From Octopus vulgaris (taxonomy: Eukaryota): DNA of 64,000 bases. The stretch is from assembly GCA_951406725.2 (NCBI GenBank), contig OX597817.1, positions 156,674,001 to 156,738,000 on the forward strand, in the 5' to 3' direction. The stretch's first letter is position 1, and each line of letters opens with the position of its first letter. The translations under genes were made by a program, and so were the position numbers. Below, in pieces: positions 15,401 through 64,000 of this stretch. The notes beneath the pieces are model-generated. The model made no database searches and was not told the origin of the DNA. It worked only from the letters and a program-made list of their open reading frames with translations.

Positions 15401-15482
15401 GTCCCCCTTTATTTTCATCATTGACAGTCAAACAACTCTCTTCTACTGAACCATTCTATTGTATTCATTTTATTATTTTCAG

Positions 15483-15575
15483 AGCTTGTTAGCCATAGAA
15501 CTACTGAACTTGCACAAGCAAGAGACCGACTTTCTGAAGAAATGGAGAGTAACCAACACACGCCATCAGCGACGG
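15483..15575 (+). CDS. small phase-1 coding exon (ELVSHRTTELAQARDRLSEEMESNQHTPSAT) of the large + strand gene; possibly also a terminal exon by read-through to TAG at 15581-15583
   Basis: Strong polypyrimidine acceptor TTTTATTATTTTCAG|AG. 93 nt (31 codons), open, and GC-richer than the flanks. Donor ACGG|GTGTGT. Same phase 1-1 as the other exons. Confidence 0.65.
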
Positions 15576-15794
15576 GTGTGTAGACTTTGTGAACCTTGTC
15601 AACAGCATGTTTAACAAAGTATAATCTCTTTCAAAAAAGTTAATAATAATAATGATAATAATAATAATAATATTATGCATGCCATTGGTCAACTAATTTT
15701 TTTTTTTTTTTTTGACTCTGCTTGTTTCAATGGTCTGAGAAATTGACTGTTTTGTAAGTAGTAAAGTTGAATGTAATATCAGTCTAGTTGCTAG

Positions 15795-19940: not shown

Positions 19941-21916
19941 TTTCATTTTTTTCCTCTCCTACTATTTACCTTTCTATTATCTAATAAACTGCTACATATT
20001 TGGAGCCCAGAGAGTTAAATGATAAATACCTGTGCAATTTTTTTGATCAGTTTGACATTCTCACCTGACTGAAGAGTTCTTATATATAACATTGTTATAT
20101 TTTATCGTTTCAAGCATAAATTGCCTTTTTACTAATCTCAAAGATTGTATGGACAAACTTTTCTCTGCCTACTCCTCACTTTTATTTCTTTTTTTTTTTA
20201 TTTCTCTCTTTCCTTTCTCTCCTCGTGTGTAACACATTCTCTATCTCTCTTGATCTATTATATATATATATATACATATATACACACACTCACATATATA
20301 TATACATATACATACATGTTTGTGTGTTTATGTATGCATGTACGTGTATTTATATAGGTGTATATGTGTATACATAAATACACACACTCTGCACATTTGT
20401 GTGTATATATATATATATTTATGTATGTATGTATGTATGTATGTATATACACATACACACACTTGCTCTCTATCTGTGTCTCTTTCTTTCTATTTCTTAG
20501 ACTTTCTCATGTCCTGCTAGGCAGCTTGGCTTAGCTTTGCCAAGTTCCACTGCAATGTTGCCTCATATTGCTGCATGCTTTACTATTGTTTTAATTTTTT
20601 TTTTTGACATTTTTTCCTCCTCCTCCTTCTCCTTGTGTCTTTCCTTCTTCCATATACATGTTGTCATTTCATGTGTAATATGAATAAATTTGATGTGCCT
20701 TTTTGTATTGCTCTTAATATTATGTTTGTTTATTCTTAACATTAAACAAAGCAAAAAAAAATTGAACGAAAAGCAAAATCTTCCTGTTTAAGTTGATGAT
20801 GTTGTTAGTTATTGTCTTGATATATATATATTCTGTAATATATATATAGTATATATAAATATTTATATATACCTATATATATTTACTTTGGTTTACACCA
20901 AGAGCATCCATCATAGATTAATAACTTAGTCATATTGTTACATACTGTTAAAAGATAGATATTTAATTTAACTACATTTTTAAAAGTATTTAATGTTTCT
21001 AATTTTCTTGTGTATTTATTGATCTCATAGGGAAGGGACTGCTTTGTAACATGGCTTCCTTTAATATATTTCATCACTAAAAATTTTCCTATTCTGTTTA
21101 AAACAAAATCCAAAAAAAAAAAAAAAAAAAGTAAAATTGAGAGAACGCTAACCATTTGCAATATGTACTAACATCTTCTCATCTCTCACTCTCTGAGTTT
21201 CACACAGCATTTATATTTCCATATTTTTAATTCTTTCCATTCTAAATCTAACGAATCAAAAGTCATCTCTCAAGCTATTAACATTTAAAGTGCATCTTTC
21301 TTAACTCCATTAATTCTTAAAAAGTTTTCTTCCTTGATTGTTGCTTTGGTGTGAACCAATTTATTTGCATAAATCACATCCGATTCATAACTGGGTAAAC
21401 ACTAAACATATACAACTGAATAACATAACCTTGGGTAAAACTCATTTAATACAAAAGCTGCTGTGTCTAATGCACATGCATATATATATGTGTGTGTGTG
21501 TACATGTATATATATGTGCAAGTATATATATAATATGTACATATATATACATATATGTATTATAATAATTTTTTAATACTACTAAATAAATGGTGAATAT
21601 TACTGCATGAAAAATGCAAAACTGATAAATTACCAAATAAGGATATAAGCAATATGAGCGACTTAAAATGCATGGATATTCACAATTGGCCACTTGTTAC
21701 ATAACAAATCTCAGAAGGAAGATAATGATGCCTGGCCTCATGAATGATAATTAACTGAAGATTAATTTATCATTAACTTAAAAGAGTTCCATTTCTTCAA
21801 GGCTGCAAGAATGCATGCTGCCATTTTGGTCAATGGCCAAGCTCTGTGGGATGGACTTCAATCAAAACTGTTCCCTATAGAAATTAACTGTTATTTGTGA
21901 ATGTGTGATTTTCCAG

Positions 21917-24900
21917 AGGCAGACATTGCAGATGGCCAAATGATAACTCATGACTACACACTTGACAGTTCCTTTGAAAGCCAACGGATTCCTGATGACT
22001 CTGAATTGCAGAGTGTTGAAGTAGAAGATATCTATTATGAGCGCTCCTTAACTCCGTTGTTAGGAAGAGAATCTGATATGGTATGGAGAAATGAATGCCA
22101 GCAGAGGGATAGGAAAAATTCTTATCTCTCTGAGAATTTTCAGGAACTTGACAGTGTGTGCCGTCAAAATTATCTCCCACAACTGAGGCATTTTCACAGA
22201 GAAACAGATGAGTTTTCTTCCACTCAATCCATGCTAATTGATTCCAGATATTCAATGTCTTCGAACTTGAAAGAGAAGCCTTTCAACCTAAATTCACACA
22301 TTCATGATGAGTCCTTACATGAAGAGGAATCAATCGTTTCACATGCGGAGACCTGCCATTCCATATCAAATATATCGGATGATTACGATAACAGTTCCAC
22401 GTCCTCCTGTATTACTGTCGTTGCTGTTGATACACCAGCTATCCAAAGTTCCAATGCTGAACAACTTGACCCAGTATTAGGCTCCTGTGAAACAAATTTA
22501 GTTCCAGAGAAGTGTCCAGAGATTGAAACTAGTTCCAATGATACACGCATTCATTACAAAGCACCATCTCCGCAGCAAATGAACAATTTCAGGCCACCCA
22601 TTTTTCCCTTTCCTCCCCATCCAATGTATTCTAATGCATATAACTATGGTGGAATGCCTTGGTATATGTCAGGTACAGGCAAAAGCTTCCCACACATGTA
22701 CAACCATCACAAAAGTCTTCCAGGCATGTATGACTACAATAGAATGCCTTCTCACAAGCATTACTCAAACAGAAATGCTGAAGACCCCTATGACTTTGAT
22801 AACATGTCTGAGTACTCGTGTGTCCTGGACAGAAATTCTATGGACACACATGACATAGGCAGTAAGTCACGCTACTCAAGTGAGCAAGATATAAACTCAC
22901 AGAGTTCAGGTGGATATAACCTAAAAAGAGAATCTCTGGAAACAGTTGGCATAGACAGACAGTCTGTAGATACTTTCAATGCAAAGAGGAAATCTCTTGA
23001 CACTAGCTGTGACAATGTATCTCAAGATACCTTTAACTCTGATTCTTCACATAAAAAGGTATCTGGTTGTGTGCAACATGCTCCAAGCACATTCAGTTAT
23101 GACAGTAACTCACTGGATATTTATAAGGATGATAGCATGAGATTTCTTGATACCTATGACATTGAGCCTTTGTCACCAGACTCGGATTGCTATAGCTCGA
23201 CTTCTGATTTGTACAAGCGTGACAGCATGCCATCCAATAGATATGATACCAATGAAATGAATTCTATCAGAATGAGCCTTAGTTCACAGGACAGTATCAC
23301 AATGCTATCAGACACATATGACTCTGGTAGAATGACTCCAGATGTGTATGACTCACATAAGATGACAGCTAATGCAAATGACTCATGTAGAATAACAGCT
23401 GATTCATATGACTCTCATAGAATGACAGCTGATCCATATGACTATCGTAGAATGACAGCTGATCCATATGACTCTCGTAGAATGACAGCTGATTCATATG
23501 ATTCTCGTAGAATGACAGCTGATTCATATGACTCTCGAAGAACGACAGCTGATCCATATGACTATCGTAGAATGACAGCTGATCCATATGACTATCGTAG
23601 AATGACAGCTGATCCATATGACTCTCGTAGAATGACAGCTGATCCATATGACTCTCGTAGAATGACAGCTGATTCATATGACTCTAGTAGAATGACAGCT
23701 GATTCATATGACTCTCGTAGAATGACAGCTGATCCATATGACTCTCGTAGAATGACAGCTGATTCATATGATTCTCGAAGAACGACAGCTGATCCATATG
23801 ACTCACAGAGAATGACAGCCGATTCATATGATTCTCATAGAATGGCAGCTGATTCCTATGACTCACATAGAATGACAGCTGATACATGTGATTCTTATAG
23901 AATGAATGCTGATATGTGTGACTCACATAGAATAACAGCTGATACATGCGACTCACGTAGAATGACAGCTGATACATGTGACTCACGTAGAATGACAGCT
24001 GATACATGTGACTCGCGTAGAATGACAGCTGATACATGTGACTCACGTAGAATGACAGCTGATACATGTGACTCACGTAGAATGACAGCTGATACATGTG
24101 ACTCGCATAGAATGACAGCTGATACATGTGACTCACGTAGAATGACAGCTGATACATGTGACTCACACAGAATGACAGCTGATACATGTGACTCACGTAG
24201 AATGACAGCTGATACATGTGACTTGCATAGAATGACAGCTGATGCATGTAACTCTCATAGATTGGCAGCTAATGCATATGACTCTCATAGAATAGCAGCT
24301 GATACTTATGACTCACATACAATGACAGGTGACATGTATAACTCAGGTACAATGACAGCTGGTACATATGACTTGTGTAGTGTGATATCTGATACATATG
24401 ACTCCCATCAAATAACAGCCAATAGATATAACCTCCGTAGAACAACAGCTGACATATATGACTCTAGTAGAATGACCACTGATACAGATGACTATAATAC
24501 TGTGTCTCAGGATTCCTATGATTCTGGCAGACTGTCACCAGACTCGTATGACTGTCATAGTTTGTCACAATATATGTATGACTATGAAAGACATTCACCA
24601 GATACATACAGCTTAGATCAAATGTCTGCAGATTCATGCTGTGAGGAAGAATATGATGAAGTCTTTTCCTCACAAAATAATGCATTGGATACAGACACTG
24701 CTCCAGACTTCTATTGTTCCAGAACCTTACCTGGGTCATTTAAAGAAAACCCTGCACTTCTTCATAGTAATATTTACAAACCAAGGAGTTCCTTTAAAAA
24801 GTGTAACAACCAGCAGCTACCTGTTAGAAATATGTATAACATGTTGCCCTCTCGGGGCTATCATACACCTGTTATTCCTAACAGAGGTTCAATGTTCTAC

Positions 24901-27025
24901 AGAAGGTTTAATACTGGAAGCTGTTGTGATGATAGTGATGAGAGTGATGTTTTGTCACTTGAAAGTCTAATTAATGATGATCCCAATGAGAGGAACAGTG
25001 ACACAAATGGCACTGATGGTCTGTTTGTAAGCAACCATAATTTAGGGTTATTTTCTGATCTGCAACATAGACTTAGCCAGACAAAGGACAAGGGCATACC
25101 CAACTGTGATGACTTCATATACCCAACAAGTGCTAGGAATCAACGGTTTTCTAGTCAAAATGCTTTCAATGTTGATAAAACAATTCCTAGCAAGTTCGCT
25201 AATGATCAGAATAATATGCTATGGAACAAACGTAATATTCCACTATATAGCAGCTCTTGTTACAATGATTACAATGCTGACCGCAGGACTGTAGAAATGG
25301 GTGCCCATAACAGTGACCAGGTGTATCAACAGTCAAAAGGTTCTCATTTCCAGAATGACCACTTGAAGTGTTACAACTCAGAGAAGCCTGATTCAAAAAA
25401 TAGCTGCCTATTGCCTTCTCAGTCTAAAGACTCTATACAAAGTCTACAAAACATTGACAATTATGGCCCTATGTTACCCCCTCCCCCCTACAGTGGCCCT
25501 AAATCAAACTTATCTTTCAAAGGTTATGACAGGCAGTACCCTTATTCTAACAGGTCTAACAACCATAACCATTACCCATGCATGTTTGACCAACACTGTC
25601 CAACAATACCAAGTTATAACAGTGAGGATGGTGATCACATGTCTTTTAATAGTTCTGACGAGAAAAGTCTGAATAGCAAAACTTTCCATCAGTTAAATAA
25701 TCCAAGCTTCACTCGTAAAAATTTCCATGATTTCTCAAAGAGCATGTCTACATTAGAATCTGAGAACAGAAGTACAAGTTTTCCTCGACGTTCTACCAAT
25801 GCAGGAACTTATGACTCCAGTCAGTCTTTAGATTTGCACCCTAGGTATGAAAACGATCCCCCAACATTTGGAGCTTCTACAAATGAAAGATTATTCAAGC
25901 CCCTTCAGAAGGAAAACTATGTGTACAATTGTTCCAGCCGTTCTTCAAGTCTGGCAAGATATCCCAGTAATGTTACACAAATGTCTGATTCTGATACCCC
26001 ATATTCTAACATCTTGGATAATAGTTGCTATACAGGTTTCAGAAGTAACAAAATGCCTTATCTAAACTCACCATGTGGTCCGAATTGGTTTGGCTTGCAA
26101 GAAATTCCTTTCTCTTTCCAAAGTTTTCCTCCTTTTGGTACCCGCACCTCCAGATCTGGTCTTAGTAATCACTTCGGTAAGAAACAAATTCTTTATGACT
26201 TCACTAAACCATTTTCTAACCAGTTTTTCTCTCTTGGAATGGTCTCAAATATGATGGATGAAAATTCTTTGAAGACCAAAGAATTACTAAGTGGACCAGT
26301 AAAGGGTTCAGACAATGTATGCTCACACAGAATTCCCCAAATGGATAACCGTTTTTGTTATAAATTTCCATTTGATGATACTGTCTCATCTGGGAATTCT
26401 TCAAGTAGGTATAAAGGCTGTTTAAAGAAAATATCTTCTGATATATCATTAGAACATGAACCTATTCAGATTCCATCTAGGCAAGAGGTATCCAAGTCAT
26501 CTGTAACACCTGGGAATGGTAAAAACTGTCATGCAGTGATGCAGCAGCTAAATCCTAAACAAACTTTCCCATTGACATATTCTGTTGGTTCTTTGTCTCT
26601 GTTGGATTTTGAAATATTCAGAGTGGAAGAAAAAGTAACTTTTGAAAGACCCAAATTGGAAAGCCTGTCTATTATAAGAGGACAGAAAGCCCGTTCTTTC
26701 ACTGATGTGTCTTGTAGTTTTGATGCCCTTGATGGTCAAGCTGGTGGAAGCATCTGTGATATTCCTATGGTAGATGTTCAGACACTTGCAGTACCACCAT
26801 GCACTATAGAAGATGTAACTTCCTCATGTCTTTGTGATAAGGTTAATGTTAAAGATGCTACTACAGCTTCTCAAGTCAAAGTAATACCTTTAGAAGAATC
26901 AGATTTGTTCACACAAGAATTTGAGATAGCTCCACCCAAAGAAGAATATATGTCCATCCTACGTGGTTGTGCTGCCAAGTCCAATCAAGATGTGTTTCTA
27001 CATGAAGGTCTAAGTGTCAGCAAAG
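21917..27025 (+). CDS. giant phase-1 cassette exon (5109 nt, 1703 codons), Ser/Asp/Tyr/Met-rich disordered polypeptide with 10-aa tandem repeats; probably part of a giant ankyrin-like gene
   Basis: ORF 21901-27042 (1713 aa). An in-frame TGA sits immediately before the ATG. Acceptor GTGATTTTCCAG|AG at 21916 and donor AAAG|GTAATT at 27025 give a length divisible by 3. A standalone intronless gene cannot be excluded. Confidence 0.8.
23311..24480 (+). repeat. coding 30-bp tandem repeat (MTAD[P/S/T][Y/C]DSRR)
   Basis: AGAATGACAGCTGAT[CT]CATATGACTCTCGT units in exact 30-nt register. About 28 highly similar units at 23401-24240, with degenerate units on both sides. Confidence 0.95.
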
Positions 27026-27372
27026 GTAATTATGGATTTTAAGCTGTAGTACCTCGCCAAACCATTGACAGAAACCATAAAACATTACAAAGAACACCCA
27101 AGCCACTTGCTAATATTCATATCCATAAATGTAGAAAAATAACTCATTTTTGCAAGTGCTTTAGAAGTACTGCTACAGAATTTAGGTAATTAAATATCTT
27201 GCTCAAGTAGGATTTTAATCATAGCATCAATGTTCTGATATTTTGTACAAAATATTTGGCCACTACATCATGCATCTGACATCAATAGTATCATGAAAAC
27301 ATTTTTTGGATAACTGCTTATTATGTGGGTTACATCTTCAGTATTAATTTCAGTCTCTCTCTCTCTCTCTTT

Positions 27373-36627: not shown

Positions 36628-39600
36628 GCCGTTGGAAACGTGCCAATGCTATGAAAAGAAAAAAACACAAAAAAAAATCACCCAGTGGTGCACAGATAGA
36701 ACGTGAGGCTGCGAGAGTAAAATCCCCTGGAATAGAGAATAAGGTAGAAGGTGAAGTTTTCAGAACCCCTCCTACAGAAAAGACTGATGTGGAAGAATAT
36801 GAAAAGGTTTTGGAGGATGGTACTATGTACCATGTTAAGCGAATCCGAAAGCATTCACTGTCTCGTGTTAAGAGAAAAATTGTTTCAGAAGATGGTACTG
36901 AAAGATTGGTTGAGGAAAACATTGATATACCTGGAACAGAGACTATTGACAGTATTGAGACTTTTGAACAGCCACCTCGTTCTGTAAGTGTGATTGAAAA
37001 AGTAACAGAAGAACTTCCTTCTGGTAAGGTGGTTGAGCGTAAGATGCAGAATGTTCGAATGGTGCACAAGATCAAGACAACGCACAAACACATTGACCCA
37101 GACCAGACTATCAAATTTGAGGAATATGAAATGGATGAGGTAGTTCCTGGTACAGAAACTTGCTTTTACATTGATGATAAGTCTAATGTTGATGCCAATA
37201 GAACTACTCAGAAGCCTCAGATACCTATTGACAAAAATCTATATCGTGTAGATTTACCATTTGAGCTGGAACGCTTTTACCATGTTGATCAAGACAGGCA
37301 GCAAAAAGAACAGAGTCCTCTTAACCATGTTGAAGTAACTGATGGCCAAATGGTCAAAGGAACTGTTGAACTGCATGTTGATCAACATATCCAGGAAAAG
37401 ATTCAGAAGCCAAACACCAAAGATATCAGACGTATTGAGTTACCACAAGAAGATTCATTCCAAGATAATAATTTCACATCTGATCAAGTTGACAACCAAA
37501 CTCTTGAAACATTCATGTGTAAAAATGTTCCGAGTGCGAAAATGTCAGTTGGTCAGGATCATGTTGATTTGCCAGTGGATACAGATGATGTACATGAAGA
37601 TCTACCAGCTGCTCAAAATGTCAGACGATCTCTTGGTGAAGGTGTCTATCATGTAGACCAGCCTGTTGCTTTGGAAACTTTGCACCGTGTTGAGAAACCT
37701 TCCTTTCAAAGTGGAGAGTATCCTATTGATCAATCAGTTGATAGCATTGAACCAGTTGATGCCAACATTGCGTATAGTCAACAAATTCCATCTGATCAAG
37801 ATTATAACATTGGAAAGCTGTCTGCTCCAGATATTCCACATGTAGAAATTACAAAAATTGAAGATTATGATGAATATTATGATGTACCAGCTGGTGAAGT
37901 GCTGCCAGATACTAAAGTTACCAAACCTACTGGTCCATTTGGTGTCTACCATGTTGATCTTCCAGTGGATCTTGAACAATTACATCGTGTTGACCCACCT
38001 TCCCGTCCAGTCAGCTCTCAAGATATTGACAAATCACTTACTCAAGCTGACATCCCAACTACTCAAGACTTCCCAGAAGGTATTGAACACACTATTGGAG
38101 AGTATCGTACCACACCTGTTGATGTTTTCCAGGTCAAGATCACCAGCTACCTGTTGAGCCACTCTCTCGTAAAGACATTCCTGTAGTTGAGTCATCTCTT
38201 GATCAAATTCATCAGCATGTCCCTATTCCTACTGATCAAAATGTCAGACGCTCGGTTGGTGGAGGTGTATATCATGTAGACCAGCCTGTTGCTCTGGAAA
38301 CTTTGCACCGTGTTGAGAAACCTTGCCTTTCAAAATGGAGAGTATCCTATTGATCAATCAGTTGATAGCATTGAACCAGTTGATGCCAACATTTCGTATA
38401 GTCAACAAATTCCATCTGATCAAGATTATAACATTGGAAAGCTGTCTGCTCCAGATATTCCACACGTAGAAATGAGGAAACCTGAAGATCATGATGAATA
38501 TTATGATGTACCAACTGGTGAAGTGCTGCCAGATACTAAAGTTACCAAACCTACTGGTCCATTTGGTGTCTACCATGTTGATCTTCCAGTGGATCTTGAG
38601 CAATTACATCGTGTTGACACACCTTCTCGTCCAGTCAGCTCTCAAGATATTGACAAATCACTTACTCAAGCTGACATCCCAACTACTCAAGACTTCCCAG
38701 AAGGTATTGAACACACTATTGGAGAGTATCGTACCACACCTGTTGATGTTGTCTTCCAGGTCAAGATCACCAGCTACCTGTAGAGCCACTCTCTCGTAAA
38801 GACATTCCTGTAGTTGAGTCATCTGTTGATCAAATTCATCAGCAAGTCCCTATTCCTACTGATCAAAATGTCAGATGCTCGGTTGGTGGAGGTGTATATC
38901 ATGTAGACCAGCCTGTTGCTCTGGAAACTTTGCACCGTGTTGAGAAACCTTCCTTTCAAAATGGAGAGTATCCTATTGATCAATCAGTTGATAGCATTGA
39001 ACCAGTTGATGCCAACATTTCGTATAGTCAACAAATTCCATCTGATCAAGATTATAACATTGGAAAGCTGTCTGCTCCAGATATTCCATACGTAGAAATG
39101 AGGAAACCTGAAGATCATGATGAATATTATGATGTACCAACTGGTGAAGTGCTGCCAGATACTAAAGTTACCAAACCTACTGGTCCATTTGGTGTCTACC
39201 ATGTTGATCTTCCAGTGGATCTTGAACAATTACATCGTGTTGACCCACCTTCTCGTCCAGTCAGCTCTCAAGATATTGACAAATCACTTACTCAAGCTGA
39301 CATCCCAACTACTCAAGACTTCCCAGAAGGTATTGAACACACTATTGGAGAATATCGTACCACACCTGTTGATGTTTTTCCAGGTCAAGATCACCAGCTA
39401 CCTGTAGAGCCACTCTCTCGTAAAGACATTCCTGTAGTTGAGTCATCTCTTGATCAAATTCATCAGCAAGTCCCTATTCCTACTGATCAAAATGTCAGAC
39501 GCTCGGTTGGTGGAGGTGTATATCATGTAGACCAGCCTGTTGCTCTGGAAACTTTGCACCGTGTTGAGAAACCTTCCTTTCAAAATGGAGAGTATCCTAT

Positions 39601-42600
39601 TGATCAATCAGTTGATAGCATTGAACCAGTTGATGCCAACATTTCGTATAGTCAACAAATTCCATCTGATCAAGATTATAACATTGGAAAGCTGTCTGCT
39701 CCAGATATTCCATACGTAGAAATGAGGAAACCTGAAGATCATGATGAATATTATGATGTACCAACTGGTGAAGTGCTGCCAGATACTAAAGTTACCAAAC
39801 CTACTGGTCCATTTGGTGTCTACCATGTTGATCTTCCAGTGGATCTTGAGCAATTACATCGTGTTGACACACCTTCTCGTCCAGTCAGCTCTCAAGATAT
39901 TGACAAATCACTTACTCAAGCTGACATCCCAACTACTCAAGACTTCCCAGAAGGTATTGAACACACTATTGGAGAGTATCGTACCACACCTATTGATGTT
40001 TTTCCAGGTCAAGATCACCAGCTACCTGTAGAGCCACTCTCTCGTAAAGACATTCCTGTAGTTGAGTCATCTCTTGATCAAATTCATCAGCAAGTCCCTA
40101 TTCCTACTGATCAAAATGTCAGACGCTCGGTTGGTGGAGGTGTATATCATGTAGACCAGCCTGTTGCTCTGGAAACTTTGCACCGTGTTGAGAAACCTTG
40201 CTTTCAAAATGGAGAGTATCCTATTGATCAATCAGTTGATAGCATTGAACCAGTTGATGCCAACATTTCGTATAGTCAACAAATTCCATCTGATCAAGAT
40301 TATAACATTGGAAAGCTGTCTGCTCCAGATATTCCACACGTAGAAATGAGGAAACCTGAAGATCATGATGAATATTATGATGTACCAACTGGTGAAGTGC
40401 TGCCAGATACTAAAGTTACCGAACCTACTGGTCCATTTGGTGTCTACCATGTTGATCTTCCAGTGGATCTTGAACAATTACATCGTGTTGACCCACCTTC
40501 TCGTCCAGTCAGCTCTCAAGATATTGACAAATCACCTACTCAAGCTGACATACCAAGTACTCAAGACTTCCCAGAAGGTATTGAACACACTATTGGAGAA
40601 TATCGTACCACACCTGTTGATATTGTTCCAGGTCAAGATCACCAGCTACCTGTAGAGCCACTCTCTCGTAAAGACATTCCTGTAGTTGAGTCATCTGTTG
40701 ATCAAATTCATCAGCAAGTCCCTATTCCTACTGATCGGAATGTCAGACGTTCTGTTGGTGGAGGTGTATATCATGTAGACCAGCCTGTTGCTCTGGAAAC
40801 TTTGCACCGTGTTGAGAAACCTTCCTTTCAAAGTGGAGAGTATCCTATTGATCAATCAGTTGATAGCATTGAACCAGTTGATGCCAACATTTCGTATAGT
40901 CAACAAATTCCATCTGATCAAGATTATAACATTGGAAAGCTGTCTGCTCCAGATATTCCATATGTAGAAATGAGGAAACCTGAAGATCATGATGAATATT
41001 ATGATGTACCAGCTGGTGAAGTGCTGCCAGATACTAAAGTTACCAAACCTACTGGTCCATTTGGTGTCTACCATGTTGATCTTCCAGTGGATCTTGAGCA
41101 ATTACATCGTGTTGACCCACCTTCTCGTCCAGTCAGCTCTCAAGATATTGACAAATCACTTACTCAAGCTGACATCCCAACTACTCAAGACTTCCCAGAA
41201 GGTATTGAACACACTATTGGAGAATATCGTACCACACCTGTTGATATTGTCCCAGGTCAAGATCACCAGCTACCTGTAGAGCCACTCTCTCGTAAAGACA
41301 TTCCTGTAGTTGAGTCATCTCTTGATCAAATTCATCAGCAAGTCCCTATTCCTACTGATCGGAATGTCAGACGCTCTGTTGGTGGAGGTGTCTATCATGT
41401 AGACCAGCCTGTTGCTCTGGAAACTTTGCACCGTGTTGAGAAACCTTCCTTTCAAAGTGGAGAGTATCCTATTGATCAATCTGTTGATAGCATTGAACCA
41501 GTTGAAACCAACATTTCGTATAGTCAACAAATTCCATCTGATCAAGATTATAACATTGGAAAGCTGTCTGCTCCAGATATTCCATATGTAGAAATGAGGA
41601 AACCTGAAGATCATGATGAATATTATGATGTACCAACTGGTGAAGTGCTGCCAGATACTAAAGTTACCAAACCTACTGGTCCATTTGGTGTCTACCATGT
41701 TGATCTTCCAGTGGATCTTGAGCAATTACATCGTGTTGACCCACCTTCTCGTCCAGTCAGCTCTCAAGATATTGACAAATCACTTACTCAAGCTGACATC
41801 CCAACTACTCAAGACTTCCCAGAAGGTATTGAACACACTATTGGAGAATATCGTACCACACCTGTTGATGTTGTCCCAGGTCAAGATCACGATCTACCTG
41901 TAGAGCCACTCTCTCGTAAAGACATTCCTGTAGTTGAGTCATCTGTTGATCAAATTCATCAGCAAGTCCCTATTCCTACTGATCGGAATGTCAGACGCTC
42001 GGTTGGTGGAGGTGTATATCATGTAGACCAACCTGTTGCTCTGGAAACTTTGCACCGTGTTGAGAAACCTTCCTTTCAAAGTGGAGAGTATCCTATTGAT
42101 CAATCAGTTGATGCCAACATTGCGTATAGTCAACAAATTCCATCTGATCAAGATTATAACATTGGAAAGCTGTCTACTCCAGATATTCCACATGTAGAAA
42201 TGAAGAAACCTGAAGATCATGATGAATATTATGATGTACCAACTGGTGAAGTGCTGCCAGATACTAAAGTTACCAAACCTACTGGTCCATTTGGTGTCTA
42301 CCATGTTGATCTTCCAGTGGATCTTGAACAATTACATCGTGTTGACCCACCTTCTCGTCCGGTCAGCTCTCAAGATATTGACAAATCACTTACTCAAGCT
42401 GACATCCCAACTACTCAAGACTTCCCAGAAGGTATTGAACACACTATTGGAGAATATCATACCACACCTGTTGATGTTGTCCCAGGTCAAGATCACGATC
42501 TACCTGTTGAGCCACTCTCTCGTAAAGACATTCCTGTAGTTGAGTCATCTCTTGATCAAATTCATCAGCAAGTCCCTATTCCTACTGATCGGAATGTCAG

Positions 42601-45600
42601 ACACTCGGTTGGTGGAGGTGTATATCATGTAGACCAGCCTGTTGCTCTGGAAACTTTGCACCGTGTTGAGAAACCTTCCTTTCAAAGTGGAGAGTATCCT
42701 ATTGATCACTCAGTTGATAGCATTGAACCAGTTGATGCCAACATTTCGTATAGTCAACAAATTCCATCTGATCAAGATTATAACATTGGAAAGCTGTCTG
42801 CTCCAGATATTCCACACGTAGAAATGAGGAAACCTGAAGATCATGATGAATATTATGATGTACCAACTGGTGAAGTGCTGCCAGATAGTAAAGTTACCAA
42901 ACCTACTGGTCCATTTGGTGTCTACCATGTTGATCTTCCAGTGGATCTTGAACAATTACGTCGTGTTGACCCACCTTCTCGTCCAGTCAGCTCTCAAGAT
43001 ATTGACAAATCACTTACTCAAGCTGACATCCCAACTACTCAAGACTTCCCAGAAGGTATTGAACACACTATTGGAGAATATCGTACCACACCTATTGATG
43101 TTGTCCCAGGTCAAGATCACGATCTACCTGTTGAGCCACTCTCTCGTAAAGACATTCCTGTAGTTGAGTCATCTCTTGATCAAATTCATCAGCAAGTCCC
43201 TATTCCTACTGATCGGAATGTCAGACGCTCGGTTGGTGGAGGTGTATATCATGTAGACCAACCTGTTGCTCTGGAAACTTTGCACCGTGTTGAGAAACCT
43301 TCCTTTCAAAGTGGAGAGTATCCTATCAATGAATCAGTTGATAGCATTGAACCAGTTGAAACCAACATTTCGTATAGTCAACAAATTCCATCTGATCAAG
43401 ATTATAACATTGGAAAGCTGTCTGCTCCAGATATTCCACACGTAGAAATGAGGAAACCTGAAGATCATGATGAATATTATGATGTACCAACTGGTGAAGT
43501 GCTGCCAGATACTAAAGTTACCAAACCTACTGGTCCATTTGGTGTCTACTATGTTGATCTTCCAGTGGATCTTGAACAATTACGTCGTGTTGACCCACCT
43601 TCTCGTCCAGTCAGCTCTCAAGATATTGACAAATCACTTACTCAAGCTGACATCCCAACTACTCAAGACTTCCCAGAAGGTATTGTACACACTATTGGAG
43701 AATATCGTACCACACCTGTTGATATTGTTCCAGGTCAAGATCACCAGCTACCTGTAGAGCCACTCTCTCGTAAAGACATTCCTGTAGTTGAGTCATCTGT
43801 TGATCAAATTCATCAGCAAGTCCCTATTCCTAATGATCGGAATGTCAGACGCTCTGTTGGTGGAGGTGTATATCATGTAGACCAACCTGTTGCTCTGGAA
43901 ACTTTGCACCGTGTTGAGAAACCTTCCTTTCAAAGTGGAGAGTTTCCTATCAATCAATCAGTTGATAGCATTGAACCAGTTGAAACCAACATTTCATATA
44001 GTCAACAAATTCCATCTGATCAAGATTATAACATTGGAAAGCTGTCTGCTCCAGATATTCCATATGTAGAAATGAGGAAACCTGAAGATCATGATGAATA
44101 TTATGATGTACCAGCTGGTGAAGTGCTGCCAGATACTAAAGTTACCAAACCTACTGGTCCATTTGGTGTCTACCATGTTGATCTTCCAGTGGATCTTGAA
44201 CAATTACGTCGTGTTGACCCACCTTCTCGTCCAGTCAGCTCTCAAGATATTGACAAATCACTTACTCAAGCTGACATCCCAACTACTCAAGACTTCCCAG
44301 AAGGTATTGTACACACTATTGGAGAATATCGTACCACACCTGTTGATATTGTTCCAGGTCAAGATCACCAGCTACCTGTAGAGCCACTCTCTCGTAAAGA
44401 CATTCCTGTAGTTGAGTCATCTGTTGATCAAATTCATCAGCAAGTCCCTATTCCTAATGATCGGAATGTCAGACGCTCTGTTGGTGGAGGTGTATATCAT
44501 GTAGACCAACCTGTTGCTCTGGAAACTTTGCACCGTGTTGAGAAACCTTCCTTTCAAAGTGGAGAGTTTCCTATCAATCAATCAGTTGATAGCATTGAAC
44601 CAGTTGAAACCAACATTTCATATAGTCAACAAATTCCATCTGATCAAGATTATAACATTGGAAAGCTGTCTGCTCCAGATATTCCATATGTAGAAATGAG
44701 GAAACCTGAAGATCATGATGAATATTATGATGTACCAGCTGGTGAAGTGCTGCCAGATACTAAAGTTACCAAACCTACTGGTCCATTTGGTGTCTACCAT
44801 GTTGATCTTCCAGTGGATCTTGAGCAATTACATCGTGTTGACCCACGTTCTCGTCCAGTCAGCTCTCAAGATATTGACAAATCATTTACTCAAGCTGACA
44901 TACGAAGTACTCAAGACTTCCCAGAAGGTATTGAACACACTATTGGAGAGTATCGTACCACACCTGTTTATGTTTTTCCAGGTCAAGATCACCAGCTACC
45001 TGTAGAGCCACTCTCTCGTAAAGACATTCATGTTGTTGAGCCATCTGTTGGTTACATTGGTCAGCAAGTCCCTATTCCTACTGATCAAAATATCAGACGC
45101 TCTGTTGGTGGAAGTGTTTATCCTGTTGACCATCCTGTTATTCCGGGAACTTTGCACTATGTTGACAGAGAGTATCCTGTTGGTCAGTCAGCTGATACTA
45201 CTGAAACAGGTGATGTCACTCTTCTTCATGGTCGACAACTTCTACCTGATCAAGATTATAATATTGAAATACTCTCTCCTCAAGATATTCCACAGGTACA
45301 AATGTCCAAAACTAAAGATAATTTTCAGTATCATGATCTGCCAGCCAGTAAACAACTGCAAAGTATTGATGTGGCCAAACCTAGTGGTCCATTTGGTGTT
45401 TATCATGTTGATCTTCCAGTGGATCTAGAACAGCTACATCGTGCTGCCAAACCTTCTTCTCAAGGTGGCTCTCAGCCTGTCGATAAACCAGCAGGCAATG
45501 CTGACGTCACTACACATCATGATACCCCAGAAATTATTGGACAGTCTATTGGAGAATATCATACAACACCTGATCTTCCTACTAGTCAAGGCCAATTGCC

Positions 45601-48600
45601 TACTAAACAAGATGATCATATAATCAAACAGCCCATTGCTCCAGGTGTTCAATATAATAAAATATCCACTCAAGATACTGATGCTGTTCATATTCCCACT
45701 GACCAATATGGCCAGCCTATTTCTCCATCCACTGCTCAAGATGATCATGGTAATAGACTGTCCATTGGTGCAGGTGTTTATCATGTGGATGTTCCAAGTA
45801 ATCTTGAACAACTACACAGAGTTGACCAACATAGTCAGCTGAGACCTACAAGCGATATTGATCAACCTACGCATCAGGATGTACAAGGTAACATTGGTTT
45901 ACGTGCTGGTCAGGATGTTGAAAACAATGTTGTAATACCTGCTCCTGAAGGCATTCGTAGTGTGACTGTGGTTTCTACTCCAGGAATACATCATATGTCC
46001 TCTCAAATTGTAGATATGCAGTCTCCTGTCACATCCTCTGACCTGAAATTTCCACTTGCTCAGGAACAGTATACTGGTGAAGGTATTCCAGTTCCCACAA
46101 GTCGAGATCAACTTAATAAGGCAGATATTCACATTGGTGAAGGCCAAGAGCTGTCAAGTATTGAGCAGCTCGCAGATAAAGGTAGTTCCAGTGTTGATCC
46201 ACGTGGTTTTGCTTTACCATCCAATAAAGGCAATACATACATTGGTGGGTTACCAGTTCATGCTGAGCTTCCTACTAGCCAAGAGGATCATCGTGATGGT
46301 CTTTCAACTAATCGGCCTTCCTTCCATAGTGACACCCCAACAGGTGGTTCACGCCTGCATCACGTTGACCACTCCACCGGTCAAGATAGTTGCAAGCCCA
46401 TTGACTTATCTGTTGATCAAGATCCTTTAGTTGACAATTTTCCTGCCGATCAGTACTGCTATTATGTTGACCCCCCTATAACCGAAAAAATTTCCCTTGC
46501 ACATGAAACTACTGACCTATCCACGAACAAACATATACCTCTACATAGTTTTCATCTGTCCACTGGTCAAGATGTTCATCAACATCTTCCTCTTCAGGCT
46601 CATCAAGTTGAATTACATCATGATGATTCTCGAACTGAAGATGGTAATCAAGATACTAACAAAATTGTTGGAGTTCATTGTGATAAAGTATCTGCTGGTG
46701 GTCAGATTCTAACCACGGTCCTGACATCTGACAGTGATGTTGGTCACCTTCGAGAGGAAGATCATAATGTTGATGGAAGTGTCAGTTCAGATGGGGCTGT
46801 CCCTAGCATTCAGGCACAAGTACAAAATCTCAATGTCACCTCATGCCAAGGACAGCTCAAAAAAGATGACCTATCCAGTGGGCAAGATAAGTTCAAGTCA
46901 GTTCAAAATACTGGTCAACATAGAGATGACCATGAATGTCGGTATGGCCTCAAACATACTGACCAACATGGAGATGACCATGAATGTCAGTATGGCCTCA
47001 AGCATACTGATCAAGATGATGATCATGAATGTCGGTATGGCCTCAAACATACTGACCAGCATGGAGATGACCATGAATGTCGGTATGGCCTCAAACATAC
47101 TGACCAGCATGGAGATGACCATGAATGTCGGTATGGCCTCAAACATACTGACCAGCATGGAGATGACCATGAATGTCGATATGGCCTTAAACATAGTGAC
47201 CAACATGGAGATGACCATGAATGTCGGTATGGCCTTAAACATACTGACCAGCATGGAGATGACCATGAATGTCGATATGGCCTTAAACATACTGACCAGC
47301 ATGGAGATGACCATGAATGTCGATATGGCCTTAAACATAGTGACCAACATGGAGATGACCATGAATGTCGATATGGCCTCAAACATACTGACCAGCATGG
47401 AGATGACCATGAATGTCGATATGGCCTTAAACATAGTGACCAGCATGGAGATGACCATGAATGTCGATATGGCCTTAAACATAGTGACCAACATGGAGAT
47501 GACCATGAATGTCGGTATGGCCTTAAACATAGTGACCAACATGGAGATGACCATGAATATGGCCTCAAACATACTGACCAACATGGAGATGACCGTGAAT
47601 GTCGGTACGGCCTCAAAGACAGTGAACAACAACAAGATGACTTTCAATGTCAATATAGCATCAAATATATTGACCAACATAGAGATAACAAAGAATGCGA
47701 GTATAGCCTCAGACATACTGACCAAGGTAATGTCTTTGAATGTCAGTATGACCTCGAACATAGTGACCAGTATAGGGATGATCAATACTGCTTTTATATT
47801 AACCCCCCTGTCACCGAACAAATTTTCCTTGCACCTCAAACTGCTGACCCATCTGTGTCCAAACATGTTCCTCTACATTGTTTTCATCTGTCCACTGGTC
47901 AAGATGTTCAACAACATATTCCTCTTCAGTCTCATCAAGTTGATTTACGTCATGCTGATTCTCAAACTGGTGAAAATGGTAATCAAGTTGGTGACAAAAC
48001 TGTTGACATTCATTGTGATAAAGTATCCACTGGTGGTCAGATTCTAACCACTGTCCTTACGTCTGACAGTGATGCTGGTCACCTTCAAGAGGAAGGTGGA
48101 ATAGTCTCTGTCGTCCAGACACATGTACAAAAGAACCTCACCTCTGAGGGAGCTCAATCGCAAAAAGATGACCTTTCCACTGGACAAGGTCAGTCCAAGT
48201 TAGTTCAAGGTACTGAACAGCAGGGCACTGAATATAGCTTTGGACAAGGTCTTCAACAGAGCAGCAGCACTGAATGCAAGTATACTTTTGAACATACTGG
48301 TCAATCAGGTGAAAGTAGTAGCTATAACATTGAACAAACACACATCACACACAGTTTTCCAAAATCTGATGAGCTCTCTGGTCATCAACAGGGTGACGTA
48401 TCCATCCTCCATCTTTCCACCCAACAACCCGATGCACCTTCTAGTAGTCGCTCTCAAAGTAGCACTACTCAGCAAGGGGACATTTCATATTCCACTCACA
48501 TATCATCTCAGTCAACTTCAGACCAAGATACTCTCCAATTCCAAGACTCTCGCACACCGACCGTTCTATCTGACCCCACTAAAGAGGTCACAACAAAAAA

Positions 48601-48656
48601 GTCTTCACGGAAATCTCGTAAATCAAATCGTAAGAAGAAAAAAACATCTTCACAAG
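36628..48656 (+). CDS. giant phase-1 exon (~12 kb, ~4009 codons after correcting three indels) encoding a repeat-rich disordered region; probably giant ankyrin-like
   Basis: Acceptor TTTTTGCTTTACAG|GC at 36627 and donor CAAG|GTAATT at 48656. ORFs 36651-38186, 38289-38783 and 38930-48784 are one repeat-continuous reading broken by -1 (~38128), +1 (~38326) and +2 (~38754) indels relative to the other repeat copies. 12029-2 = 12027 nt = 4009 codons. Confidence 0.8.
37614..45085 (+). repeat. coding 624-bp (208-aa) tandem repeat, 12 near-identical units plus a degenerate 13th to ~45600
   Basis: Units begin CAAAATGTCAGACG/CGGAATGTCAGACG at 37614, 38237, 38864, 39488 ... 45086. One unit is 606 bp (18-bp deletion near 42110). 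Confidence 0.95.
46919..47770 (+). repeat. coding 48-bp (16-aa HGDDHECRYGLKH[T/S]DQ) tandem repeat
   Basis: About 15 close copies plus 3 degenerate copies, seen in both the DNA and the 3284-aa ORF. Confidence 0.95.
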
Positions 48657-55119: not shown

Positions 55120-55469
55120 AAACATTATCAATGTCACAAACTCAGTGTTTGTATTTTGTGCGTGTGCTCATTAGCTGTTAAATAGTGTCAGAAGAATAAG
55201 TCACATTAAGATGTCAAGTTTTAAAGGGTCTTTTCCCTTTGATGCTATCCCACAGCTAATGAGTGCATAAGCAAAACACATACTATAAGTATGTGACATC
55301 AATAATGTTTACATTATTAGAACTGCTTATAATCCAGAATTCTATATATTCCGGGGTTTCTTCCTTCCTTCCTTCCTTTTTTTTTTTTTTTTTTCTGTTT
55401 CGTTTTCTGTTTCCATTATTTGTGTTGCAGGCGGCAGTACGCATTTGTCACTTTTGTTGTTACTTTCAG

Positions 55470-55640
55470 CCCGTCTCGCTGTGGCGGGGAAAACACCCAC
55501 CATAACTATCACCGAGGACAGCAGCAGCCCCCATCATGACGATGATGATGAAGAAAGCGATGATTATCTCCGCTTTATCGAAAAGCATCAGCAAAAAATG
55601 CAACAGCAACAACAACAAGCTGCTGCTGCTGTTGACAAAG
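55470..55640 (+). CDS. phase-1 cassette exon (RLAVAGKTPTITITEDSSSPHHDDDDEESDDYLRFIEKHQQKMQQQQQQAAAAVDK)
   Basis: Acceptor TTGTTACTTTCAG|CC, donor AAAG|GTTAGA, 171 nt open and GC-rich. An alternative in-frame acceptor at 55430 gives 210 nt. Confidence 0.8.
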
Positions 55641-55694
55641 GTTAGATGATTAGAGAAAACCACATTTGAATGACAATTACAAACATATGTGTGT

Positions 55695-62010: not shown

Positions 62011-63084
62011 AATGTTTTTGTTTCTTATTTTATTTTGATTTCTTCCAATTAAGGCTGTTTTATTCCCAGTCTGCACTGTGAAGCTTGTTTTTACTGCTAT
62101 ACATGTGATATAAAGTATTGCATATATTTTATAAATATATATATATATATACACGTGTGTATATGTATGTATATATATATTTATATATATTTATATATAT
62201 ATATATATATATAAACAAACTTGATAATCTTGTGTTATCGTGATATTCTTGTATGTTTATAATTAAATGTTTAGAGTATTCTGGAATGATATACCCATAA
62301 AAAAGAAAATGATCTTCATTTGTTTTGTTTACCAAAATAGTTTCTTTGAGGCCTGAAGATCTGATCCCTTTTCAATACCTATAACTTAAATTCTTAAATT
62401 ACTTTATATTTATATTGACTCCATCAAAATTCCTATTTACTAATCTTTACATTAGTAAATACTTTAAACCAAAAGTTGGCATCAACTGAGTAATTTATAC
62501 ATCATATTCTTTTAGAAATTCCAAATTTTTACTATTTCACTTGAAAGATTTTTGGTATATCCAGGGTTCTCGTTGCATTAATGGTAATTAATAATTCTGA
62601 TCAGAACATTTCATCATTAACCAGGTTAAAATGAACTTTTAATTAACTCTGATTTTTTTTTTCCCATTATTTAATCTTCTTAACTCTTTATTAATTATAA
62701 TCCAGCATTTTCAATTTAAACTTATATACATATACTCTCACACATTGCTACACACAGATACAGAAAAACATACACAAATACATATAAATGTATATATAAT
62801 ATATGTATCTATATGTGCGTGTGTATGGTTTTTTTTTTTTTTTTTTTTTGGTAATGTTCCATTTTCTCAATAATTCCTTTACAATAACTAATGTGTATTA
62901 CTTAAAGCAAAACTCTGTAAACCATTTCCTTCTAATAACATTTCCAATTTACTCATCTTGAAATCTCTCCTTTTTAATGCTTGCATTTCGGATTGCTGTC
63001 GGATTTTTTTTTTTTTTTTTACCTACCTTTAATTGTAAAACAAACAAAAACAAAACTATTGACAAAAAAACAAACCCTTGATAG

Positions 63085-64000
63085 ATGATGAGAGTGAGGG
63101 TAAAACAAGATCAGTCGCTTCTATTATTCAAATGTTTGAGCAAACATCTGACACTGCTTTGCAAAGTTCAGCTACAGACATTGTTCGTGAAGTCCAGAAA
63201 TCAGCACAAGCAACGTTACGCAAAGAATCTCAGGAATTCGTAAAGCAAGACTCTTCTGAGTGGGTTGTCATTGACGACAGCGATCTTGATGGCTTTGATG
63301 CAGAAAAGGTGCCATCAGCCAATGGTACTTATGTTGAAACAGAAGATTCTGCTCCAAAGGTAGAAGAATGGGTAAAAGTCTCTGCTGTCAAAGAGAAATT
63401 TGAGGACAAAATTAAGAATGGCTCCATGTCTGAAAAAACTATTATACGTGAAGCCACCAAAGTTCACACAAGCACTTTAGCAAAACATAAATCTTCAGAG
63501 AAAGCTGATGATGTTGATCAACCTTACGGTGTCCCGGAACCGCCCGACGCCCACTTTAAGACTCCCTCAGATGATGAAAATCTTGAATTTTCTGAGAAAT
63601 TGAAAATGTTTACTGGTAAACATGCCCAAAATTATTATGTCACAACTCAACCTGATGAGTTATTAAGCTCTGATGAAGAAACACCAGACACTACCTCGAA
63701 AGGAAGTGAAAGGTCATACCAAACTGCATCTGAAACGAGTGAAATCCGATCTGAAACTGTAAAAGTGTCTTCTACAGGAGAGCAAAAAAGTGAAGTCGTT
63801 GAAGAACGACGCGAAAGCACTTCATCACTGATTGCCAAGTTTGAGGAAGCTACAACTCGTGAAAAGCCGTCAAAGAAAGAGGCCATGTCATTTGACAAGG
63901 ATAGCAAAGAAACAGTACAAAAAGAAGTGACAAAATCTTGGAAAACTGATTCTTCTCAAAGTGCAGTCCAGGAGATAAAGGAAAGTCACGTATTCCAAGA
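63085..64000 (+). CDS. 5' part of a third large phase-1 exon, running off the window; giant-ankyrin-like (LIR motifs, S-V-x-x-h-x-x-x-F-E motifs)
   Basis: Acceptor CCCTTGATAG|AT, open for all 916 nt: DESEGKTRSVASIIQMFEQTSD...KQDSSEWVVIDDSDLDGFD...KVEEWVKVSAVKEKFEDK...STSSLIAKFEEATT...ESHVFQ. Absent from the ORF track, presumably because it has no stop inside the window. Confidence 0.85.

What the first reader, a model, noticed from the sequence alone, without database searches (positions are those of the whole stretch)
23311..24660. 10-aa repeat array is a dense kinase-site polymer with a Tyr block followed by a Cys block
Seen: about 16 MTAD[P/S]YD[S/Y]RR units (23401-23880) switch abruptly to about 12 MTADTCDS[R/H]R units (23881-24240). 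Unit junctions create about 19 R-R-x-T motifs by my count, and each unit has two Asp and two basic residues. Established: R-R-x-S/T is the PKA consensus, and multisite-phosphorylated repeats (neurofilament KSP, Pol II CTD) act as charge switches. Inference: a charge-balanced polyampholyte whose phosphorylation would flip its net charge, with a Cys block open to redox change, metal binding or acylation.
Basis: partly seen in the sequence, partly recalled or inferred. Interest (0 to 1): 0.7.

Follow-up and report, generated by a model that had tools for sequence, protein, structure and literature searches.

The report
Extra giant exon in octopus ankyrin
The repeat is real and sits in a 5-kilobase open frame inside the octopus ankyrin gene, likely an extra giant exon that adds a floppy, length-variable spacer; its tyrosine and cysteine blocks likely arose by recent local copying rather than as a conserved phosphorylation switch.

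Summary
The array is real: 29 core decamers, 16 Tyr-type then 13 Cys-type, 19 RRxT. It lies in a 5,109-nt phase 1-1 exon candidate (21917-27025) downstream of the ANK-ZU5-ZU5-UPA-death-domain core of the octopus ankyrin gene. Lineage-specific repeat arrays in such long exons are known (PMC5135030). The charge-flip idea fails: the core is already net -10 and would only become more negative. The O. bimaculoides orthologue keeps a shorter array with 8 RRxT but no Cys block, a silent marker co-segregates with the blocks, and flanking dN/dS is about 0.8. The motifs are copies of one founder unit. What is unusual: this exon lacks the Ser/Glu bias of canonical ankyrin long exons, and the gene has four long frames where at most two were catalogued. 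Splicing into ankyrin is inferred, not shown. The scan's earlier notes held nothing on this locus or look-alike DNA.

The parts
21917..27025 (+). Long exon candidate E1, 5,109 nt (1,703 codons), AG..GT, phase 1 at both ends; frame also reads through the donor to a stop at 27040-27042
   Evidence: ORF 21901-27042; acceptor read by eye (too weak for the script's pyrimidine cut-off); donor AAG|GTAATT phase 1; contig of run X6 starts at 21916
23302..24651 (+). 10-residue repeat region with degenerate edges (45 decamers in register)
23392..23871 (+). Tyr block, 16 units, 11 with RR, net -5
23872..24261 (+). Cys block, 13 units, 7 with RR, net -5; carries its own silent Ser-codon variant
15483..15575 (+). 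93-nt phase 1-1 exon candidate upstream of E1
   Evidence: phase by arithmetic on ORF 15425-15583
36628..48656 (+). Second long exon candidate E2, about 12 kb, 208-aa and 16-aa repeats, three frame changes as assembled
55431..55642 (+). Small exon candidate with phase-1 acceptors (55431 or 55470); donor not located
63063..64000 (+). Start of third long frame E3 (2,387 codons, runs to 70223 beyond the window), canonical Ser/Glu-rich composition

Best explanation
The array lies in a 5.1-kb open frame downstream of the death domain of the octopus ankyrin gene, which is likely spliced in as an extra giant exon and would add a predicted disordered, length-variable spacer to a giant ankyrin. Shown: gene context, open frame, splice-site phases, block structure. 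Inferred: the exon is included in some ankyrin mRNAs (as a cassette or as an alternative last exon); selection keeps the frame open and the chain polar and near-neutral but cares little for individual residues; a 30-bp unit amplified by slippage or unequal crossing-over, and a Cys-type unit already present at the 3' edge of the ancestral array was copied about a dozen times in this lineage, giving the sharp Tyr-to-Cys boundary. The RRxT sites may well be phosphorylated, which would make the spacer more acidic and more extended, but they are passengers of one amplified unit rather than a conserved, position-specific switch.
For: Ankyrin core upstream on the same strand in G000:C4: ANK exons 156.49-156.55 Mb, ZU5 156,610,874, second ZU5-like exon (E 0.001, below cut-off), the only UPA_2 locus found in the genome, Death 156,642,494; window starts at 156,674,001. 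No + strand ORF of 300 codons or more in the 300 kb upstream. E1 and the neighbouring exon candidates are phase 1. Protostome long exons lie downstream of the death domain and carry lineage-specific repeats (PMC5135030 sections 8, 9, S4 Table). Orthologue P0004: 774 of 846 residues identical after the array but array span 297 versus 400 residues, Cys at position 6 in 3 of 34 decamers, no Pro variant. Silent Ser codon TCT:TCA/TCG is 11:2 in the Tyr block and 2:10 in the Cys block. Flank differences to run X14: 11 silent, 22 replacement, 0 stops among 33 listed of 38, neutral expectation 28% silent, p 0.33. Two single-sequence folds gave pLDDT 37.8 and 39.1. Guessed-RNA runs X6 and X5 begin at 21916 and 21947 while X1 and X14 run on into the intron: a weak hint of splicing at this acceptor.
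Against: No read or contig joins E1 to an ankyrin exon (no joints); no full-length protein containing E1 was found. [quoted passage not shown] Inside the array silent changes are somewhat enriched (12 of 28 versus 26% expected, p 0.04, with double counting between blocks), and RRxT survives in the orthologue, which leaves room for selection on the motif. Only one orthologue was available.
Confidence: 0.6

Rival explanations
1. The array is a selected multisite phosphorylation module of giant ankyrin: a basophilic kinase (PKA-like) phosphorylates Thr2, which primes Ser/Thr at +3 and +6 (CK1-type) and Ser at -4 (GSK3-type), turning a near-neutral chain into a strongly acidic extended brush. Kinase consensus rules for CK1 and GSK3 are recalled, not from a call.
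For: 19 of the 26 [RK][RK]x[ST] motifs of E1 are in the array; Thr2 in 27, Ser/Thr5 in 19, Ser8 in 25 of 29 units; 8 RRxT in the orthologue core; the giant-exon domain of mouse ankyrin-G is highly phosphorylated and two sites control its opening (PMC6765234 abstract).
Against: No sign change is possible; the first Arg is one of the most variable positions, mostly CGT to CAT; all sites are Thr; motifs are copies of one unit, with 5.5-8.4% chance per founder; no phosphoproteomic data seen.
Confidence: 0.17
2. E1 is a separate gene nested on the same strand in an ankyrin intron (own start at ATG 21901 or 21940, stop 27042, ATTAAA at 27189).
Against: Both ends have splice sites in phase 1 like the neighbours; X6 contig starts at the acceptor, downstream of the first ATG; the position is exactly where protostome ankyrin long exons lie.
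Confidence: 0.12
3. The repeats bind or bundle microtubules by avidity, as the 15 x 12-residue repeats in the giant exon of mammalian ankyrin-B do.
For: Short lineage-restricted tandem repeats in an ankyrin giant exon bind microtubules in proportion to copy number (PMC7401806 passages).
Against: The ankyrin-B repeats are basic (pI 10.6); this array is net negative; no sequence likeness to the consensus in S4 Table.
Confidence: 0.06
4. E1 is rarely or never translated now and the array is a drifting minisatellite in a decaying exon.
For: Near-neutral dN/dS in the 5' flank; weak acceptor; no splice junction seen.
Against: Frame open over 1,703 codons here and 1,196 residues in the orthologue, with length changes only in whole codons; array unit is a multiple of three with no indels.
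Confidence: 0.05

Closest known systems
Long exons of bilaterian giant ankyrins (Drosophila Ank2-L/XL, C. elegans unc-44, Aplysia and Lottia ankyrin; PMC5135030)
   Same: Over 3 kb, downstream of the death domain, no known domain, lineage-restricted repeat array; repeats of Ank2-XL were postulated to be a molecular spacer (as reported in PMC5135030).
   Different: No Ser/Glu bias (rich instead in Asp, Arg, Tyr, Met, Cys, Asn); 30-bp unit is shorter than the 36-228 bp range reported; one of four long frames where S4 Table lists at most two per gene.
Mammalian giant ankyrin-B 15 x 12-aa repeat (PMC7401806)
   Same: Short tandem repeat, predicted disordered, in an ankyrin giant exon, restricted to one lineage.
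   Different: Basic and conserved in number across mammals, upstream of the death domain; the octopus array is net acidic and differs in copy number between two species.
Octopus bimaculoides A0A0L8HCD8 (P0004, uncharacterized)
   Same: Orthologous frame, 83% identity overall, same decamer and same C-terminal end.
   Different: Annotated as a stand-alone protein; array about ten units shorter, no Cys block, no Pro variant.
Reflectins (PMC9779258)
   Same: Cephalopod, Met/Tyr/Arg/Asp-rich, phosphorylation-tuned in squid; loose likeness of the unit to the printed N-terminal motif.
   Different: 0 reflectin motifs in E1, 4 Trp in 1,713 residues, Ala-rich and net negative; no homology hit.

Membership tests
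Canonical ankyrin gene | N-terminal ankyrin-repeat domain | tested here: met
   Many + strand ANK exons at G000:C4 156.49-156.55 Mb; 3 of 3 tested pass Pfam Ank cut-offs; they read like the Aplysia and Lottia rows. All 24 repeats were not counted.
Canonical ankyrin gene | ZU5-ZU5-UPA cassette followed by death domain | tested here: met
   second ZU5 exon weak
Giant-ankyrin long exon | ORF/exon over 3 kb downstream of UPA, after the death domain in protostomes | tested here: met
   5,109 nt, 53 kb after the death-domain exon
Giant-ankyrin long exon | Ser+Glu about 25%, S/E/T/D/K/P over 55% | tested here: not met
   E1 18.3% and 45.0%; E3 28.9% and 64.8%, E4 28.8% and 58.5% do meet it
Giant-ankyrin long exon | Spliced to the ankyrin core in mRNA | tested here: inconclusive
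   Contig start at the acceptor in a guessed-RNA run, no joint
Giant-ankyrin long exon | Neuronal expression, axonal or synaptic localisation | not testable with these tools
   No tissue labels or raw RNA reads were offered
Multisite phospho charge-switch repeats (neurofilament KSP, Pol II CTD) | Repeated kinase consensus | tested here: met
   19 RRxT
   -10 before, about -46 after
Multisite phospho charge-switch repeats (neurofilament KSP, Pol II CTD) | Motif under purifying selection across species | tested here: inconclusive
   8 RRxT in one orthologue; Cys block not kept; within-array silent excess p 0.04
Multisite phospho charge-switch repeats (neurofilament KSP, Pol II CTD) | Phosphorylated in vivo | not testable with these tools
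   needs phosphoproteomics
Reflectin | Repeated M/F-D-X5-M-D-X5-M-D motif, Trp-rich, cationic linkers | tested here: not met
   0 motifs, 4 Trp, net negative

The most novel reading that the evidence does not exclude
Octopus ankyrin has gained extra giant exons of a new chemistry (four long frames, about 11,000 codons after the death domain), and E1 is a tunable sticker-and-spacer brush: kinases swell it through the repeated Thr/Ser ladder, while A-to-I editing can recode each Tyr codon (TAT) to Cys (TGT), the Cys block being a genomically fixed version of that edit. Squid ankyrin is reported as the second most recoded protein (102 sites), so the array would be a ready-made test of editing plus phosphorylation on one axonal scaffold.
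Probability: 0.08. Interest if true: 0.75.

Novelty: new variant of a known kind. Interest (0 to 1): 0.32.

Why it matters
Giant ankyrins organise axons and synapses across bilaterians, and their long exons evolve so fast that composition is their only reported common trait. An octopus ankyrin with four long frames, two of which break that rule, extends the known range and gives concrete targets for long-read sequencing and proteomics in cephalopod neurons; it also places an 'uncharacterized' database protein inside the ankyrin locus. The array itself, with its Tyr and Cys blocks, is most likely an ordinary product of tandem-repeat turnover.

Tried and rejected
Pfam on the three long frames: nothing credible. 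PDB sequence search of the array: 0 hits. ESM Atlas: no usable hit, which shows neither novelty nor absence. Homologue searches: only P0004 is a real hit; searches among longer proteins found none, weak evidence. Own-genome search with the array gave 63 matches; the 7 next-best loci inspected are unrelated low-complexity repeats; the N-terminal part of E1 is single-copy. Genome-wide Ank_2 search scored only 150 of 1,128 candidates and listed none at this locus, so the upstream DNA was read directly. Special RNA hairpin as an editing substrate: z -2.2 against dinucleotide shuffles but 7 of 40 column-permuted arrays fold as well: rejected. The A>G differences listed for X5 and X6 are shared with X14: no evidence of editing. 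Beta-solenoid: one low-confidence model showed periodic strands (pLDDT at most 55 per block), the Cys block alone did not, and AlphaFold2 is reported to over-predict solenoids for repeats (PMC11795689, listing only): rejected. Reflectin kinship: rejected. The primary Ank2-XL spacer paper was not held.

Full report
Observation. Tandem Repeats Finder reports a 30-bp array at 23315-24493 (39.3 copies, 84% matches, no indels) inside a + strand ORF 21901-27042 of 1,713 codons. There are 19 RRxT and no RRxS in 23302-24681. The core holds 57 Asp, 47 Arg and 8 His: net -10, -2 with all His charged, about -46 with 18 phosphates. Phosphorylation would therefore deepen, not flip, the charge. A random order of one such decamer yields RRxS/T in 5.5-8.4% of shuffles, so the motif count reflects amplification of one unit.

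Host gene. The window is G000:C4:156,674,001-156,738,000. Upstream on the same strand lie ankyrin-repeat exons (156.49-156.55 Mb), ZU5, a weaker second ZU5 exon, the only UPA_2 locus found in the genome and a death domain at 156,642,494. This is the canonical ankyrin, in an octopus close to O. bimaculoides, whose uncharacterized protein A0A0L8HCD8 is 83% identical to the ORF. The ORF has an AG at 21915-21916 (read by eye; below the script's pyrimidine cut-off) and a donor after 27025, giving a 5,109-nt phase 1-1 exon E1; neighbouring exon candidates are also phase 1. Three more long frames follow: E2 (36628-48656), E3 (63063-70197, acceptor not located) and E4 (91334-100558 in extended coordinates). 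E1 could also be an alternative last exon: the frame stops five codons past the donor, with ATTAAA at 27189.

Is it expressed and spliced? The non-repeat part has 1,252 stop-free codons (about 1e-35 by base composition) and the orthologue is open over 1,196 residues with length changes in whole codons only. On 21600-23300, contigs of two guessed-RNA runs from two studies begin at 21916 (X6) and 21947 (X5) while X1 and X14 continue into the intron; no joint was seen. This is a weak hint only. Splicing to the ankyrin core is inferred.

How the blocks arose. The orthologue's array spans 297 residues against 400 here; its 137-residue core has 8 RRxT and 3 Cys, scattered, one of them in the shared 3' edge unit. 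Here a silent Ser codon segregates with the blocks (11:2 versus 2:10; units are not independent, so the Fisher p of 0.001 is descriptive), and units differ by about 3.0 bases within and 5.0 between blocks. This is the signature of local duplication from a Cys-type founder. In the 5' flank, 33 listed of 38 differences to run X14 split 11 silent to 22 replacement, against 28% silent expected (p 0.33, dN/dS about 0.8); the 3' flank is 774 of 846 identical to P0004. Inside the array the script counted 13 silent and 15 replacement variants; after I re-scored one as replacement, 12 of 28 against 26% gives p 0.04, with variants shared by the blocks counted twice: a slight point in favour of constraint. 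Two single-sequence folds were unconfident (pLDDT 37.8, 39.1), consistent with but not proof of disorder.

Comparison with what is known. PMC5135030 (seen: abstract, passages, section 8, part 1 of 2 of section 9, S4 Table, three supplement rows with cut cells) reports long exons after the death domain throughout protostomes, repeat arrays of 5 to over 160 copies in a subset, homologous only among close species, a postulated spacer role for the Ank2-XL repeats, at most two long exons per gene, and a shared Ser/Glu bias. E3 and E4 meet that bias (S+E 29%; SETDKP 65% and 58.5%); E1 and E2 do not (S+E 18% and 14-15%; SETDKP 45-46%). So the gene is a giant ankyrin, and E1 works like a long exon by position and size but fails the composition criterion: an atypical extra exon. 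HMMER over 1.84 billion representatives with the 3' flank found only P0004 below 1e-10, which suggests a narrow distribution but is weak evidence given incomplete cephalopod annotation. Phosphorylation matters in the giant exon of ankyrin-G (PMC6765234, abstract; PMC12202978, passages), and short repeats of ankyrin-B bind microtubules but are basic (PMC7401806, passages). PKA prefers Ser but can take Thr (PMC7361990, abstract). Reflectin motifs (PMC9779258, passages) are absent. Squid ankyrin is heavily recoded by editing (bioRxiv 10.64898/2025.12.15.694494, three passages; supplements closed, so site positions unseen). PMC6703079 gave only a reference line; PMC11795689 was seen as a search listing. 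Four searches (listings only) showed no paper on octopus ankyrin long exons, and the Jegla supplements hold no octopus entry. CK1 and GSK3 consensus rules and the repeat-turnover mechanisms are recalled.

Verdict. A real array in a likely extra giant exon of octopus ankyrin; best read as a fast-turning disordered spacer (0.6), with a selected phospho-module (0.17), a nested gene (0.12), microtubule binding (0.06) and decay (0.05) as rivals. Interest 0.32, mostly for the four-long-exon architecture.

Noticed in passing
window 36628-48656: About 12-kb second long exon candidate with many near-identical 208-residue repeats; three frame changes near 38130, 38325 and 38755 as assembled, possibly sequencing errors.
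   Followed up: partly
window 46903-47769: 48-bp array (18.3 copies) encoding a His/Asp/Cys/Tyr-rich 16-mer, a candidate metal-binding repeat inside E2.
   Followed up: no
window 36628-37230: Non-repeat, charged, beta-strand-like start of E2 with a Lys-rich stretch; no Pfam hit and no hit among longer proteins.
   Followed up: partly
window 63063-64000, L023, L025-L026: Long frames E3 (2,387 codons) and E4 (3,089 codons) with canonical Ser/Glu bias; with E1 and E2 about 11,000 codons after the death domain.
   Followed up: partly
window 27043-27200: After the E1 stop the same frame stays open for 48 more codons and ends at a second donor-like site overlapping an ATTAAA.
   Followed up: no
window 22560-22830: Pro/Met/Tyr/His/Asn-rich low-complexity stretch of E1, single-copy in the genome.
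   Followed up: partly
L026-L027 (extended window 106728-107678): 317-codon Asp/Gly/Tyr/Ala/Thr heptad-like repeat frame after E4 on the same strand; exon status unknown.
   Followed up: no
L028-L029 (extended window 123376-125625, - strand): Retrotransposon-like integrase and reverse-transcriptase frames downstream of the gene, judged by eye.
   Followed up: no
L002 (G000:C25:10281788-10285792): Unrelated 1,670-codon frame of 9-10-residue Ser/Lys/Thr/Asp repeats that also change type along the array.
   Followed up: no
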